DNA of 64,000 nt from an uncultured Eremococcus sp. (lineage in GTDB: Bacteria; Bacillota; Bacilli; Lactobacillales; Aerococcaceae), in the NCBI GenBank assembly GCA_943914835.1, contig CALUDO010000001.1, positions 125,608 to 189,607 on the forward strand, in the 5' to 3' direction. The position numbers and the translations under genes were made by a program. Shown one piece after another: positions 16,113 to 19,422 of the stretch. Under the pieces are notes generated by a model, which did not search any database, was not told the DNA's origin, and saw only the letters and a list, made by a program, of their open reading frames with translations. Within the stretch, counting starts at the first letter, position 1. Each line of letters starts with the position of its first letter.

Positions 16113-16146
16113 AAAAAGGACAAGCCCAGTGCTTGTCCTTTTTTGG
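16113..16146. terminator. Bidirectional terminator between ptsI and folT
   Basis: AAAAAGGACAAGC-CCAGT-GCTTGTCCTTTTTT. Confidence 0.8.
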
Positions 16147-16170: not shown

Positions 16171-16713
16171 TTAGAATTGGTAACGTTGAATAAATTTTTT
16201 AATTGTTGGGATATTAAATAGGAAATATAAAATGGCGGTATTTAAGGGGAATGAAATTAAGTTTTTGATAATTCGCATAGGCATGAAAACTGACCAGGCC
16301 TTCCCGTACATCATACGAATCCATATGGAATTCATTCCGATGTTAACAATTAAAGTAATTGCTAAGACAGCCAAAGCAATTTGTTTCAAACTGGTAGGTT
16401 TCCGCCATAGGAATAAGCCATAAAGCAGCCCCCCCACGGCTGCTGATAGGGTGAACCCTAAGAAAAATTGTTTTCCGTGAAGCATGGCTGTAATTAAGTC
16501 ATTGGCAATGGATACGATTAAAGCGTACCAGGGTCCAAAAAGGATACCGGAGAGAGCGGTTCCTACAAATCCTACTCCAATTTGCACCAGTTTACCAAAA
16601 TCTAACGATGGTAAGAAACTCAAAACGATGCGTAAGCCTAAAATAATACCTAGTAATGTCACTTGAATAGTACTTAATTTGCCTGGAAGGCGATAACTTG
16701 TTTGTTTTTGCAA
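16171..16713 (-). CDS. folT: ECF transporter S component, folate family (FolT-like)
   Basis: 180-aa membrane protein with 5-6 TM helices. TTG start after AAGGAGAG. Sits directly downstream of a THF riboswitch (see the 16741-16866 feature). Confidence 0.7.
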   Translation of the reverse strand: MQKQTSYRLPGKLSTIQVTLLGIILGLRIVLSFLPSLDFGKLVQIGVGFVGTALSGILFGPWYALIVSIANDLITAMLHGKQFFLGFTLSAAVGGLLYGLFLWRKPTSLKQIALAVLAITLIVNIGMNSIWIRMMYGKAWSVFMPMRIIKNLISFPLNTAILYFLFNIPTIKKFIQRYQF

Positions 16714-16740
16714 AATAAACTCTCCTTTAATATAGATTCC

Positions 16741-16866
16741 AGAGAGCTACATATCTTTTTTATTTATGTAGCGAATGCAAAGTAAGACCGCAACCCATTG
16801 TTGTGTTTTCGTTTATGAGCAACATTCCATCTCATAACACTTAACGCCTTACTTTTACTCTGACTG
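16741..16866 (-). promoter_or_regulatory. THF (tetrahydrofolate) riboswitch with SD-sequestering expression platform
   Basis: Minus-strand RNA AGAGUAAAAGUAAGGCGUUAAGUGUUAUGAGAUGGAAUGUUGCUCAUAAACGAA...GGUCUUACUUUGCAUUCGCU matches the THF aptamer consensus (GCGUUAAGUG, AUGG.AUG loop, ACGAA, GCAUYCGCU) with compensatory P2, P3 and pseudoknot pairings. Downstream hairpin GCUACAUA/UAUGUAGC plus CUCUCU is complementary to the SD. Confidence 0.8.
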
Positions 16867-17111
16867 ATTCAAAATGACTTGTCCAAACACAGTATCTGCT
16901 CCTACAAATACGACCTCACTATAGCACGTTTATTTGCTGATGTATAGGGTAAGAAAGGGGTAACAAATAAATTTCACAATATACATTTAATATAAGCTTG
17001 AAGCTACAAGAGTCTGTAGGTAAATTGCACAATTTTTAAATAGACTTTTATTTTTTTTAGAAATTGTCTATAATTGGCCATAAGAAGAATAAGAAAGTAG
17101 GAGGTGGCCTT

Positions 17112-18338
17112 ATGAATATTGGTTTCTTTACGGATACATATTTCCCCCAGATATCTGGAGTTTCGACATCAATTTCTATTTTGAAGAAGGAATTAGAAGC
17201 CAGAGGACACCGAGTCATTATTTTTACGACTTCAGACCCTAAGGCTCACAAGGATGAGACCATCGTTCGATTACCAAGCCTGCCTTTTATTTCTTTTTCT
17301 GATAGAAGGGTAGCTTACCGCGGATTTGATAAGTGTCTAAAGATTGCAAGACGGATGGATTTGGATATTATTCATACTCATACAGAATTCTCTTTGGGTC
17401 TGGCTGGTCAATACGTAGCTTCCCGCTTACATATACCCGTTGTTCATACCTACCATACTATGTATGAACGATACACCCATTATATAGCTGATGGCTTAAT
17501 TATTGGTCCATCAGAGGTTAAGGTCTTGACCCGTCAATTCTGTTCCTTAGCGGGCGGAATTATTGTTCCTTCTCGATTGACCTACGATACTCTATTGGAA
17601 TATGGTGTTAAAACCCCCATGAAGGTGATTCCGACTGGGATACCAATTGATTATTGTGACCACCTGAATAACCAAGCTCTTAGGGAGGATTTGGGTATAA
17701 CGGATCAAGATATTGTCTTTATTTCCCTATCTCGTTTGAGTAAAGAGAAGAGTATAGACCAAGTCATAGTAGCCTTTAAAGATATCATCAAGGCCCTACC
17801 TCAAGCGAAGTTGGTTATTGTGGGGGGTGGGCCGGAGAGAGAGAACCTAGAGAAGCTAGCTCAGGAAATACCAGATGACCGCGTAAAGTTTGTGGGAGAA
17901 GTTGACCATGAAGAAGTCGATAAGTATTACCAACTAGGTGATGTCTATATCAATGCTTCAGACTCTGAAACCCAGGGTCTAACCTATATTGAGAGTCTGG
18001 TGAATCACGTGCCAGTGATTGCCAAGAAAAATGATTACCTAGAGACAATTTTTGAGGGAGATTCTCACTTCGGCTGCTTATATCAAGAAGAAGATGAATT
18101 GGTTGCAGTAGCTGTTCAGTATGCACAAGATGTGAAGAACAAAGTGATTCCTCCTATCAACAATAACCAACTCTTTAGTATTTCTTCTGAGAAATTTGGT
18201 CAGTCGGTAGAGGATTTCTATCGGGAAATTTTGGCAGATCCACAGAATTATAAGCATTCTATGTACAACCGAATTCAACAATCAATGAAAGATTTTGTTC
18301 GTGAGTTAGTATTGGGAAGTGAGGAAAATCATGACTAA
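17112..18338 (+). CDS. GT4 glycosyltransferase, diacylglycerol glycolipid synthase-like (alMGS/BgsB-type)
   Basis: MNIGFFTDTYFPQISGVSTSI... N-terminus is characteristic of 1,2-diacylglycerol 3-glucosyltransferases. The C-terminal EX7E-type GT4 domain is present. ATG 17112 follows AGGAGGTGG. Confidence 0.7.
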   Translation: MNIGFFTDTYFPQISGVSTSISILKKELEARGHRVIIFTTSDPKAHKDETIVRLPSLPFISFSDRRVAYRGFDKCLKIARRMDLDIIHTHTEFSLGLAGQYVASRLHIPVVHTYHTMYERYTHYIADGLIIGPSEVKVLTRQFCSLAGGIIVPSRLTYDTLLEYGVKTPMKVIPTGIPIDYCDHLNNQALREDLGITDQDIVFISLSRLSKEKSIDQVIVAFKDIIKALPQAKLVIVGGGPERENLEKLAQEIPDDRVKFVGEVDHEEVDKYYQLGDVYINASDSETQGLTYIESLVNHVPVIAKKNDYLETIFEGDSHFGCLYQEEDELVAVAVQYAQDVKNKVIPPINNNQLFSISSEKFGQSVEDFYREILADPQNYKHSMYNRIQQSMKDFVRELVLGSEENHD

Positions 18339-19190
18339 GATTGGGTTTATTGGTTTGGGAATCATGGGCCACTCTATGGCTCAACACCTCTTGGAAGACT
18401 ATCCTTTGTATGTTTATAATCGAACCCAATCTAAAGCTGACGACTTGGTGGCCTCGGGGGCTCACCGGTGTAAAAGACCGGCTGATTTGGTAGAACAAGT
18501 GGATGTCGTTCTTACCATCTTAGGCTATCCTGGAGATGTAAAAGAAGTATATTTGGGTGAGGAAGGACTCTTAGCTCATTGTCATCCAGGACAAATTATG
18601 ATTGATTTAACGACTTCTTCCCCTAGCTTGGCTGAGATGCTTTATCAAAAGGGGTAGGATTATCAAGTGGATATATTCGACGCACCCGTTTCTGGAGGGG
18701 ATATCGGTGCTAGACAGGGCCGTTTATCCGTTATGGTAGGTGGACCAGAGGAGAAATTTGACCAGGTTAAAGATATTTTGAGCCGATTTGCTAGCCAAGT
18801 GACTTATTTCGGTCCAGCTGCTAGTGGTCAACATGCTAAGATGGCCAATCAAATTATGGTCGCTGGCACTATGTTAGGTATGTGTGAAGCATTAGCTTAT
18901 GGCAATCAAGCTGGTTTAGACTTAGAAGATGTTATTACTACACTGTCCGGAGGTGCGGCAGCCAATTTCTCTTTAGTAAACTACGGTCCCCGAATTTTGA
19001 AAGATGATTATTCACCTGGCTTCTTCGTTAAACATTTTATAAAGGACTAGGGATTGCCCTAGAGGAAGCTGAAAAGTCTGGCTTACAAGTCCCTATGACC
19101 CAATTGGCCAGCCTCCTATATACCAAGCTGGCTGACCAGGGTATGGATGAATTAGGAAGTCAGGCTTTAATGAAATTGTGGTGGAAGTAA
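18331..19190 (+). pseudogene. Disrupted NAD(P)-dependent oxidoreductase, 3-hydroxyisobutyrate/6-phosphogluconate dehydrogenase family (B. subtilis yqeC-position), one nonsense codon plus one -1 frameshift
   Basis: N-terminal MTKIGFIGLGIMG Rossmann motif. An in-frame TAG at 18655-18657 interrupts ..LYQKG*DYQVDIFDAPVSGG... The frame is lost at 19048-19050 (..HFIKD* then GIALEEAEKSGLQVPMTQLASLLYTKLADQGMDELGSQALMKLWWK continues in the +2 frame to 19190). All three pieces together span a full-length homologue. Confidence 0.7.
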
Positions 19191-19191
19191 G

Positions 19192-19422
19192 ATGCCTATG
19201 CGACGATCCGCTTTAACGCATATTATCCAACGTTTGGAGCTTATGCAAAGAAGTCATCATGAAGAGCTTCGTCGGTTTGAGGCTCATGGTTTAGAAAAGT
19301 GCTTGGTGGAGTACCATCCACAGGATCAGATTTTTCTAGTTCATGATTTAGACCGTCAGGCTACCTACTCTTTTGATAATATAGATTTAGTAGCCATTGA
19401 AATTTATGAATTATTAGGCTAA
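19192..19422 (+). CDS. Hypothetical small cytoplasmic protein (76 aa)
   Basis: ORF with GGTGGAAG SD, followed by a hairpin terminator. I do not recognise a family. Confidence 0.45.
   Translation: MPMRRSALTHIIQRLELMQRSHHEELRRFEAHGLEKCLVEYHPQDQIFLVHDLDRQATYSFDNIDLVAIEIYELLG

What the first reader, a model, noticed from the sequence alone, without database searches (positions are those of the whole stretch)
16714..16866. THF riboswitch controlling a folT-type ECF S component, with SD-sequestering platform and visible covariation
On the minus strand, the leader of the 180-aa ECF S-component gene reads 5'-AGAGUAAAAGUAAGGCGUUAAGUGUUAUGAGAUGGAAUGUUGCUCAUAAACGAA...GGUCUUACUUUGCAUUCGCU-3'. This tracks the THF aptamer element by element, as I recall it from Eubacterium siraeum (AGAGUAG-AUGAUUCG-CGUUAAGUG-UGUGUGA-AUGGGAUGUCG-UCACACA-ACGAAG...GGUGAAUCAUU-GCAUCCGCUC). 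GCGUUAAGUG and ACGAA are identical. The paired regions differ in a compensatory way: P2 AAGUAAG/CUUACUU versus AUGAUUC/GAAUCAU, P3 UUAUGAG/CUCAUAA versus UGUGUGA/UCACACA, and the pseudoknot GGAAUG/CAUUC versus GGGAUG/CAUCC. Downstream, hairpin GCUACAUA-N11-UAUGUAGC (16772-16746) is followed by CUCUCU (16746-16741). That hexamer can pair with the AAGGAGAG Shine-Dalgarno (16727-16720) of the TTG-initiated gene. This suggests a translational off-switch and assigns the transporter to folate uptake.
Basis: partly seen in the sequence, partly recalled or inferred. Interest (0 to 1): 0.55.

Follow-up and report, generated by a model that had tools for sequence, protein, structure and literature searches.

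The report
Known THF riboswitch before folate transporter
This is an ordinary member of an already catalogued RNA switch family that senses the folate cofactor tetrahydrofolate, and it most likely blocks translation of a folate-uptake protein when the cell has enough folate.

Summary
Rfam's THF-I model (RF01831) matches window 16864-16768 (minus strand) full length at 66.4 bits against a gathering score of 36 (E 7e-13). It is the only Rfam family above threshold in the 64 kb. P2 (9/9), P3 (7/7) and the L3-J2/1 pseudoknot (5/5) all pair. The 180-aa TTG-initiated gene downstream (16713-16171) is a FolT-family ECF S component: TIGR04518 scores 113.8 bits against a cutoff of 60, and the best solved relatives are FolT structures. 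Ten distinct orthologous loci from Aerococcaceae-like bacteria carry the same aptamer. They also share the platform: a hairpin overlapping the P1 3' strand, then CUCUCUG, then AAGGAGAG, then the start codon. No intrinsic terminator meeting the scan's criteria separates aptamer and start. What it left open is how the ligand is coupled to SD masking. My inference is a strand exchange. Without ligand, the aptamer's 5' UCAGAG pairs with the anti-SD CUCUGG and the hairpin forms, leaving the SD free. With THF, P1 forms and AGCUCUCU pairs with GGAGAGUU. This rests on folding calculations and limited covariation, not experiment. The class, its gene association and its OFF logic are all already known, so interest is low.

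The parts
16918..16946 (-). Candidate sigma-70 promoter: -35 TATACA (16946-16941), 17-nt spacer, extended -10 TGcTATAGT (16926-16918). It would place the transcript start about 45 nt before the aptamer.
   Evidence: Pattern scan (9/12 matches, TG present). Relatives L003 (TGgTATAAT) and L010 (TGnTATAGT) have an extended -10 box 41-54 nt upstream of their aptamers. Inferred, not shown.
16768..16864 (-). THF-I riboswitch aptamer. P1: GUCAG 16864-16860 with CUAC 16771-16768 (C16862 bulged). J1/2: AGUA 16859-16856. P2: 16855-16844 with 16791-16779. P3: 16840-16831 with 16819-16811. L3: 16830-16820. P4: 16807-16792. J2/1: GCAUUCG 16778-16772. Pseudoknot: GAAUG 16827-16823 with CAUUC 16777-16773.
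   Evidence: Rfam RF01831 at 66.4 bits against GA 36, E 6.9e-13, full-length alignment. Anchor-based pairing: P2 9/9, P3 7/7, PK 5/5.
16746..16772 (-). Platform hairpin H1: GCUACAUA (16772-16765), 11-nt loop, UAUGUAGC (16753-16746). Its 5' arm contains the P1 3' strand (CUAC). The last 3 nt of its 3' arm (AGC) are the 5' end of the SD-sequestering strand.
   Evidence: Sequence. Predicted in all folds. In 28 related leaders 92% of cells pair, against 12-51% when the partner is slid. The only two differences in 374 nt between the window and a 99% strain fall in its loop.
16739..16748 (-). Anti-SD strand AGCUCUCUGG. Positions 16748-16741 pair with the SD region (OFF state). Positions 16744-16739 (CUCUGG) can instead pair with the aptamer 5' strand UCAGAG 16863-16858 (proposed ON state, helix P1').
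   Evidence: Duplex energies: -10.1 with the SD and -7.1 with the 5' strand. MFE with the SD forced open. MFE of the nascent RNA ending before the SD. Outer P1' pairs 66% paired against 24-44% slid.
16718..16727 (-). Shine-Dalgarno region AAGGAGAGUU. The GGAG core is 16725-16722, 8 nt before the start codon.
   Evidence: Sequence. Conserved as AAGGAGAG or GGAGCG in orthologous leaders. Opening cost is 7.25 kcal/mol with the aptamer closed and 2.99 in the free leader.
16171..16713 (-). folT: ECF transporter S component of the folate family, 180 aa, TTG start at 16713-16711.
   Evidence: ORF list. TIGR04518 113.8 bits against cutoff 60. PF12822 44.6 against 30.7. FolT structures 5d3m, 4huq, 4z7f and 9kym at E 4e-29 to 1e-19.
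16113..16143 (.). Palindromic terminator-like hairpin between the convergent ptsI and folT genes. On the minus strand it reads GGACAAGC-ACUG-GCUUGUCC followed by UUUUUGAAUU, which would end a monocistronic folT transcript.
   Evidence: Flagged on the + strand. The minus-strand reading comes from the sequence. Function is inferred.

Best explanation
A class I tetrahydrofolate (THF-I) riboswitch sits in the 5' leader of a monocistronic folT gene in an unnamed Aerococcaceae-like bacterium. It acts as a translational OFF switch.

Shown by computation: the aptamer is a full-length, high-scoring family member with its pseudoknot intact. The gene is FolT family. An 8-bp helix can mask the SD, and that helix is conserved and compensated in relatives.

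Inferred mechanism: four strands exchange partners.
- a = aptamer 5' strand UCAGAG
- b = P1 3' strand, which is also the H1 5' arm, GCUAC
- c = H1 3' arm plus anti-SD, GUAGCUCUCUGG
- d = SD region GGAGAGUU

Without ligand, b pairs with the first half of c (hairpin H1) and a pairs with the second half of c (helix P1'). The SD is then free and FolT is made. This state is favoured during transcription, because c emerges about 15 nt before d.

With THF or a derivative bound at the pseudoknot and junction, a and J1/2 are locked into the aptamer and pair with b (P1). H1 loses its base, and the whole of c is free to pair with d. That buries the SD and blocks initiation at the weak TTG start.
For: Identity:
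- RF01831 at 66.4 bits against GA 36.
- P2, P3 and the pseudoknot fully paired. P2 positions show 3-5 standard pair types across 44 aptamers.
- FolT HMM and PDB matches.
- The same aptamer upstream of the ortholog in 10 distinct loci. In L007-L009 a 5-formyl-THF cyclo-ligase gene lies directly upstream.

Translational control:
- No minus-strand terminator by scan criteria between aptamer and start.
- The SD:anti-SD helix is present in all 11 clade leaders. L001 and L018 carry CGCUCU/GGAGCG in place of CUCUCU/GGAGAG.
- SD-flank pair types alternate across 50 platforms, for example +5 U-A 31 / G-C 12 and +7 C-G 35 / U-A 9.
- With the aptamer closed, the SD costs 7.25 kcal/mol to open, second highest of 42 genes in the window. 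In the free leader it costs 2.99, near the median of about 2.7.

Coupling through P1':
- With the SD forced open, the window's MFE pairs UCAGAG with CUCUGG and keeps H1.
- The nascent RNA ending before the SD has exactly this MFE. The 5' strand prefers the platform over the P1 3' strand in 53 of 53 leaders.
- The best platform partner of the 5' strand is the anti-SD in 49 of 53.
- An in-silico AGAG to UCUC mutant raises the opening cost from 2.99 to 5.13 in the window, and from a mean of 3.37 to 5.05 across leaders.
- Explicit state energies are ON -28.0 and OFF -24.2 before any pseudoknot or ligand energy. P1 alone is +1.7 and P1' is -6.1.
- Outer P1' pairs: 66% paired against 24-44% slid, covariation score 0.147 against 0.071 shuffled.

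Literature: THF-I controls folT, folC and folE in Firmicutes, the PK joins J2/1 and L3, and P1 is the switch helix (PMC9881143; PMC11477058).
Against: - No experiment; all energetics are nearest-neighbour predictions that ignore the pseudoknot, ligand, Mg2+ and the ribosome.
- The unconstrained MFE of the full leader (-33.8) still keeps a 5-bp SD helix, plus a window-specific pairing of CAGAGUAA with the start region. So at equilibrium the model does not predict a cleanly open SD without ligand.
- For the window alone the shuffle control is not significant: 9 of 20 shuffled aptamers lower the opening cost as much as the native one.
- The AGAG/CUCU core of P1' is forced by the SD-like sequence of the invariant aptamer 5' end. 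Only the outer pairs are informative, and 4 of 11 clade members have a U-U mismatch there.
- The tool warns that related sequences can beat shuffles without any structure.
- H1 shows only 2 two-sided changes.
- P1 in the window is marginal: 2+2 bp around a bulged C.
- The 53 leaders are not phylogenetically independent.
Confidence: 0.85

Rival explanations
1. Same THF-I aptamer and the same OFF logic, but the coupling is the textbook three-helix relay with no role for the aptamer 5' strand. Hairpin H1 is the anti-sequestor. Without ligand H1 forms and occupies AGC (16748-16746), shortening the SD helix from 8 to 5 bp. With ligand, P1 takes CUAC, H1 melts, and the full 8-bp sequestor forms.
For: H1 overlaps the P1 3' strand by 4 nt and the sequestor strand by 3 nt. 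H1 is conserved: 92% paired against 12-51% slid. Freeing the P1 3' strand lowers the SD opening cost in 42 of 53 leaders, mean 6.96 to 5.70 kcal/mol.
Against: The effect is small: 7.25 to 6.70 in the window. Most of the drop to 2.99 needs the aptamer region. It does not explain the conserved UG(N) immediately 3' of the anti-SD core in the clade.
Confidence: 0.2
2. The SD-containing hairpin plus the U-rich spacer (GGAGAG-UUUAUUUUG) acts as a ligand-dependent intrinsic terminator. Control would then be partly or mainly by premature transcription termination just before the start codon.
For: In Facklamia lactis (L001) the equivalent hairpin is flagged as terminator-like: 9 pairs, 4 G-C, 7-nt loop, tail TTTTTATGG. 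Most of the 11 clade leaders have a U-run directly after the hairpin. The window's tail is UAUUUUG.
Against: The window's hairpin is weak for a terminator: -7.7 kcal/mol, a 15-nt loop, and 2 of its 8 pairs use the U-run itself. It was not flagged by the scan. Clade members L007 and L010, and all Lactobacillaceae-type leaders, have A-rich spacers with the same helix. The conserved feature is therefore SD masking. A U-rich spacer is also ordinary in low-GC genomes.
Confidence: 0.15
3. The aptamer is a decaying relic or a constitutive leader structure that no longer switches. folT expression would simply be low, with a masked SD and a TTG start, regardless of folate.
For: P1 is only 2+2 bp around a bulge and unstable as a duplex at +1.7 kcal/mol. 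The equilibrium MFE keeps the SD partly paired without ligand. A 67%-identical ortholog in the same synteny (L006) has no THF aptamer at all, even at E<=10, so regulation is dispensable in the lineage.
Against: The score is 30 bits above the gathering score, and every highly conserved consensus position is kept except G10 (deleted together with its pairing partner) and G41, whose change to A is compensated in the pseudoknot. The pseudoknot pairs 5/5. The same GUCAG/CUAC P1 is kept in L003 and L010, whose FolT proteins are only 72% and 61% identical. Over 374 nt the 99% strain differs only in the H1 loop.
Confidence: 0.05

Closest known systems
THF-I riboswitch (Rfam RF01831, 'folT motif'; Ames et al. 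2010; crystallised Eubacterium siraeum aptamer)
   Same: Full-length match to the family model. It has P1-P4, the inverted three-way junction layout, and the L3-J2/1 pseudoknot. The conserved GAGUA, AAGUG, ACGAA and GCAUyCGC blocks are present. It lies upstream of folT in a Firmicute, with OFF-switch logic through P1 (PMC9881143).
   Different: Nothing categorical. P1 is short, 2+2 bp around a bulged C. The platform is translational with an intervening hairpin. The held literature does not describe native THF-I platforms in detail, so I cannot say whether the P1' strand exchange proposed here is new or already documented.
THF-II riboswitch (folE motif, Rhizobiales)
   Same: Same ligand family and translational OFF control by masking the ribosome binding site (PMC6800512; PMC9881143).
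   Different: Unrelated fold: a simple hairpin with an internal loop, with the RBS inside the aptamer's P1. It occurs upstream of folE in Gram-negative bacteria and rejects N5-substituted folates. The window RNA matched only the THF-I model above gathering score.
FolT, folate-specific S component of group II ECF transporters (Lactobacillus delbrueckii 5d3m/5d0y, L. brevis 4huq, Enterococcus faecalis 4z7f)
   Same: 180-aa six-helix-type S component, aligned over residues 8-167 at E 4e-29. It passes the folate-family HMM.
   Different: No ECF module genes (ecfA, ecfA', ecfT) are adjacent, as is usual for group II S components. Substrate preference among folates is not known for this protein.
Translational OFF riboswitches with separate anti-SD and anti-anti-SD strands (for example E. 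coli thiM TPP)
   Same: Ligand-stabilised aptamer helix releases an anti-SD strand that masks the SD. This comparison rests on my own knowledge.
   Different: Here the proposed anti-anti-SD is the aptamer's 5' strand (P1 5' side plus J1/2) rather than a strand 3' of the aptamer. A hairpin parks the P1 3' strand in the ON state.

Membership tests
THF-I riboswitch (RF01831) | Covariance-model score at or above the curated gathering score, over the full model | tested here: met
   66.4 bits against 36, E 6.9e-13, model positions 1-99 of 99, window 16864-16768 (-).
THF-I riboswitch (RF01831) | P2/P3/P4 three-way junction closed by P1, with base-paired stems | tested here: met
   Alignment to the consensus structure. 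P2 9/9 and P3 7/7 standard pairs. P4 is predicted in all folds. P1 is only 4 pairs around a bulged C.
THF-I riboswitch (RF01831) | Long-range pseudoknot between L3 and J2/1 | tested here: met
   GAAUG (16827-16823) with CAUUC (16777-16773), 5/5 pairs. Position 2 is A-U in 15, G-U in 28 and G-C in 1 of 44 aptamers. The feature definition comes from PMC9881143.
THF-I riboswitch (RF01831) | Conserved ligand-contact and junction nucleotides (U of GAGUA, U of AAGUG, L3 AUGG..UG, C of ACGAA) | tested here: met
   The highly conserved consensus positions are matched, with two exceptions. G10 is deleted together with its pairing partner, and G41 is replaced by A, which is the compensated pseudoknot position. 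Mapping to U7, U25, U35, U42 and C53 of the crystal construct rests on PMC9881143, PMC11477058 and my memory of that sequence.
THF-I riboswitch (RF01831) | Location in the 5' leader of a folate transport or biosynthesis gene, same strand | tested here: met
   The aptamer ends 54 nt before the start of folT. The same arrangement occurs in 10 distinct orthologous loci.
THF-I riboswitch (RF01831) | Selective binding of THF and reduced folates, with ligand-dependent change in gene expression | not testable with these tools
   Needs in-line probing or ITC, and reporter or toeprint assays.
FolT (folate family ECF S component, TIGR04518) | Score above the curated family cutoff, with other S-component specificities below theirs | tested here: met
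   TIGR04518 113.8 bits against 60. ThiW 16.6 against 84.35. CD3073 17.9 against 180. Riboflavin S component PF07155 23.9, below 26.7.
FolT (folate family ECF S component, TIGR04518) | Homology to structurally characterised FolT proteins over the whole membrane domain | tested here: met
   5d3m E 4.2e-29 over residues 8-167; also 5d0y, 9kym, 4huq and 4z7f.
FolT (folate family ECF S component, TIGR04518) | A shared ECF energising module (EcfA, EcfA', EcfT) in the genome | not tested
   None is adjacent: the neighbours are ptsI and a GT4 glycosyltransferase. The rest of the window was not scanned, and the rest of the genome is not available.
Intrinsic-terminator-type riboswitch platform | G+C-rich stem with a 3-8 nt loop followed directly by a U-run, between aptamer and start codon | tested here: not met
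   No minus-strand site in 16714-16870. The SD hairpin has a 15-nt loop and -7.7 kcal/mol. The criterion is met in relative L001.

The most novel reading that the evidence does not exclude
In THF-I riboswitches of Lactobacillales, the invariant 5' AGAG(U) of the aptamer doubles as a Shine-Dalgarno mimic. It captures the anti-SD co-transcriptionally, while a hairpin parks the P1 3' strand. This would be a four-strand exchange that has not, to my knowledge, been described for this class. In some Aerococcaceae the resulting SD-masking hairpin additionally serves as an intrinsic terminator, giving dual control.
Probability: 0.35. Interest if true: 0.3.

Novelty: already known. Interest (0 to 1): 0.12.

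Why it matters
It gives a confident functional label. The small membrane protein at 16713-16171 is a folate-regulated folate-uptake component, which implies that this uncultured Aerococcaceae-like bacterium salvages folates. It adds nothing new about riboswitch classes.

The only point of wider use is mechanistic. The comparative set assembled here (53 unique leaders) suggests how native THF-I translational platforms couple P1 to the ribosome binding site. Structural work on this class has been done on isolated aptamers.

Tried and rejected
1. Folding only the platform downstream of P1, with and without the P1 3' strand. The SD was paired in both cases, so unpaired probability is saturated and 'hairpin alone as anti-sequestor' is insufficient. 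I replaced it with the free energy of opening the SD.

2. Genome-collection scan with the FolT protein. It gave only two loci, Facklamia lactis at 53% and a Lachnospiraceae MAG, so the window's species is not among the representatives. I used exact-protein look-ups instead.

3. MAFFT alignment of whole aptamers. The P3 3' arm and P4 were out of register, so I extracted helices by invariant anchors. Two rows, L003 and L073, were mis-anchored there and should be ignored.

4. MAFFT alignment of mini-leaders. The anti-SD columns differ by one nucleotide between the two subfamilies. Only H1 and the outer P1' pairs were counted with the tool. The sequestor was tabulated per sequence.

5. Reading the primary THF-I papers (Ames 2010, Trausch 2011, Huang 2011, Wilt 2021). 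None is held. Three further searches found no description of native THF-I platforms.

6. Intrinsic terminator in the window's leader: none by scan criteria.

7. Riboswitch in ortholog L006: none, even at E<=10.

Full report
**Observation**

A scan of the whole 64-kb window against all 4227 Rfam families returns a single hit above gathering score. It is THF (RF01831) at 16864-16768 on the minus strand: 66.4 bits against a gathering score of 36, E 6.9e-13, covering model positions 1-99 of 99.

I extracted helices by their invariant anchors. In the window P2 has 9/9 standard pairs, P3 has 7/7, and the L3-J2/1 pseudoknot has 5/5 (GAAUG 16827-16823 with CAUUC 16777-16773). Across 44 distinct aptamers collected here, every P2 position shows three to five standard pair types. 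Pseudoknot position 2 is A-U in 15, G-U in 28 and G-C in 1.

Otherwise all coordinates given for the hairpin, the CUCUCU hexamer, the SD and the TTG start are correct.

**The gene**

The ORF at 16713-16171 (180 aa, TTG start 8 nt after GGAG) passes the folate-family ECF S-component model TIGR04518 with 113.8 bits against a cutoff of 60. The ThiW and CD3073 S-component models score far below their cutoffs. It also passes PF12822, while the riboflavin S-component family falls below its threshold.

Its best solved relatives are FolT proteins of Lactobacillus delbrueckii (5d3m, E 4e-29), L. brevis and Enterococcus faecalis.

**Organism and context**

The closest named FolT proteins are all Aerococcaceae: Eremococcus coleocola (61%), Globicatella (63%), 'Aerococcaceae bacterium WGS1372' (59%) and Facklamia lactis (53%). 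Only a metagenomic contig is 99% identical.

The neighbours are housekeeping genes with no link to folate: prfC, ptsH and ptsI convergent downstream, and a GT4 glycosyltransferase divergent upstream. A palindromic terminator-like hairpin at 16143-16113 follows folT.

An extended -10 box (TGcTATAGT, 16926-16918) lies 54 nt before the aptamer. Similar boxes lie 41-54 nt before the aptamers of L003 and L010. So folT looks like a self-contained unit: promoter, riboswitch, gene, terminator. The promoter and terminator are inferred.

**Conservation**

I fetched DNA around a graded series of orthologs. The THF model hits at 60-82 bits immediately upstream of folT in 10 distinct loci. In L007-L009 a 5-formyl-THF cyclo-ligase gene lies directly upstream of the riboswitch. 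One ortholog, L006 (67% identical, same synteny), has no THF aptamer even at E<=10.

**Expression platform**

All 11 clade leaders share the same order of elements:
- the aptamer 3' end GCAUUCGCU(G/A)C
- a hairpin (H1) whose 5' arm contains the P1 3' strand
- CUCUCUG
- 6-15 nt of loop
- AAGGAGAG
- the start codon

L001 and L018 carry CGCUCU with GGAGCG instead of CUCUCU with GGAGAG, a two-sided change.

A metagenome scan with an aptamer-only pattern, which is blind to the platform, added leaders of the Lactobacillaceae type. These have the same logic (GCUGCAU..AUGUAGC, then AGCAGCUCU, then GGAGAUGCU). The total is 53 unique leaders.

In the ligand-locked platform the SD helix is predicted everywhere. 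The SD's 3' flank alternates between Watson-Crick types across subfamilies: +5 U-A 31 / G-C 12; +6 G-C 33 / U-G 9 / C-G 3; +7 C-G 35 / U-A 9.

H1 pairs in 92% of cells against 12-51% when the partner is slid, but it has only two two-sided changes. The 99% strain differs from the window at only two positions in 374 nt of leader, and both lie in the H1 loop. The scan found no terminator on the minus strand between aptamer and start.

**How the ligand is coupled to the SD**

Folding only the platform keeps the SD paired whether or not the P1 3' strand is available. H1 alone therefore cannot be the anti-sequestor.

I then used the free energy needed to open the six SD nucleotides:

| Condition | Window (kcal/mol) | Mean of 53 leaders |
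|---|---|---|
| Aptamer treated as a closed domain | 7.25 | 6.96 |
| P1 3' strand free | 6.70 | 5.70 |
| Whole leader free to refold | 2.99 | 3.37 |

The closed-domain value exceeds the free-leader value in 50 of 53 leaders. For comparison, 41 other genes in the window have a median near 2.7, and only one exceeds 7.25.

When the SD is forced open, the window's MFE pairs the aptamer's 5' strand UCAGAG (16863-16858) with CUCUGG (16744-16739) and keeps H1. The same rearrangement appears in L001, L013 and L128. For nascent RNA ending just before the SD, this P1'+H1 structure is the MFE of the window. The 5' strand prefers the platform over the P1 3' strand in all 53 leaders. The best platform partner of the 5' strand is the anti-SD in 49 of 53.

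Explicit energies for the window:
- ON (P1'+H1): -28.0 kcal/mol
- OFF (P1 + 8-bp sequestor, before any pseudoknot or ligand energy): -24.2
- P1 alone: +1.7
- P1' alone: -6.1

This is the arrangement expected if ligand and tertiary energy have to pay for the switch.

**Limits of that inference**

- The controls are only moderately supportive. Shuffling the aptamer raises the mean opening cost to 4.47, and an AGAG to UCUC mutant raises it to 5.05. For the window alone, however, 9 of 20 shuffles do as well as the native sequence.
- The AGAG/CUCU core of P1' is forced, because the invariant aptamer 5' end resembles an SD. Only the outer pairs carry information.
- Those outer pairs are 66% paired against 24-44% slid, with a covariation score of 0.147 against 0.071. 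The tool itself warns that relatedness can produce such values. Four of the 11 clade members have a U-U mismatch there.
- The unconstrained MFE of the full leader still keeps a 5-bp SD helix. The ON state therefore has to be favoured kinetically, or by the ribosome.

**Terminator rival**

In Facklamia lactis the SD hairpin is followed by a U-run and is flagged as terminator-like. Most clade members have such a run.

The window's hairpin is weak for a terminator: -7.7 kcal/mol, with a 15-nt loop. L007, L010 and all Lactobacillaceae-type leaders have A-rich spacers. I keep a minor transcriptional contribution as a rival at about 0.15.

**Comparison with what is known**

THF-I riboswitches were described in 2010. 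They are known to control folT, folC and folE in Firmicutes, to use an L3-J2/1 pseudoknot, and to use P1 as the switch helix (PMC9881143; PMC6800512; PMC11477058).

Every defining feature that sequence analysis can test is met here. Ligand binding cannot be tested with these tools.

The primary papers are not held. I therefore cannot say whether the strand exchange proposed here has been described for native platforms. Searches of the held library found nothing on it.

**Verdict**

This is a routine member of a known riboswitch class in its canonical genomic context, detectable by the standard Rfam model. Novelty: already known. Interest: low (0.12).

The most novel reading not excluded is the SD-mimic strand-exchange mechanism, possibly with a dual terminator in some Aerococcaceae. 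I put its probability at about 0.35. It would be of modest interest if true.

Noticed in passing
window 18319-19200 (+): The NAD-binding (3-hydroxyisobutyrate-dehydrogenase-like) gene next to the glycosyltransferase is interrupted by an in-frame stop after ...LYQKG (18655-18657). It also loses frame near FVKHFIKD*, whereas the ortholog in L003 is an intact 291-aa protein. This is a likely pseudogene or a sequencing error.
   Followed up: partly
L006 2295-2500: A 67%-identical folT ortholog in the same synteny (divergent GT4 glycosyltransferase) has no THF aptamer in its 206-nt upstream region, even at E<=10. The riboswitch has been lost, or was never gained, in a close lineage.
   Followed up: partly
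L007, L008, L009 1758-2321 and 2365-2464: In these relatives a 5-formyltetrahydrofolate cyclo-ligase gene (PF01812) lies directly upstream of the THF riboswitch and folT, on the same strand. This is an independent folate link for this transporter clade.
   Followed up: no
L001 2938-2972 (Facklamia lactis): The SD-masking hairpin is followed by UUUUUUU running into the AUG and is flagged as an intrinsic-terminator-like site. The SD sits in the terminator's 3' arm, so control may be both transcriptional and translational.
   Followed up: partly
L140 1149-1524 versus window 17063-16690: The 99%-identical metagenomic strain differs from the window in the whole 374-nt leader only by a 1-nt insertion and one G-to-A change. 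Both lie in the 11-nt loop of hairpin H1.
   Followed up: yes
L130 (leader listed): One metagenomic leader reads GCAUUCGCU-GAGAUGCUAAAAAUG. Compared with its near-identical relative L124 it lacks about 30 nt, comprising H1, the anti-SD and the first bases of the SD. This is either a natural deletion variant or an assembly artefact.
   Followed up: no
window 16713-16711: The window's folT starts with TTG, whereas all 10 distinct orthologous loci start with ATG at the equivalent position.
   Followed up: no
L019 2011-2201 (-): A T-box leader (113 bits) precedes a divergently transcribed ABC transporter with a NIL domain (methionine-type). It lies directly next to that relative's THF riboswitch, so two riboregulators sit back to back in one intergenic region.
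   Followed up: no
L003 2299-2325: A terminator-like hairpin (GATCGAACGAATCGATC followed by TTTATTT) lies between the candidate extended -10 promoter and the THF aptamer of the 72% relative. The window has no equivalent.
   Followed up: no
L001 and L018, P2 5' strand: In these two leaders the P2 5' strand contains AGAGCG, perfectly complementary to their anti-SD CGCUCU. That is a second possible SD mimic inside the aptamer, specific to this lineage.
   Followed up: no
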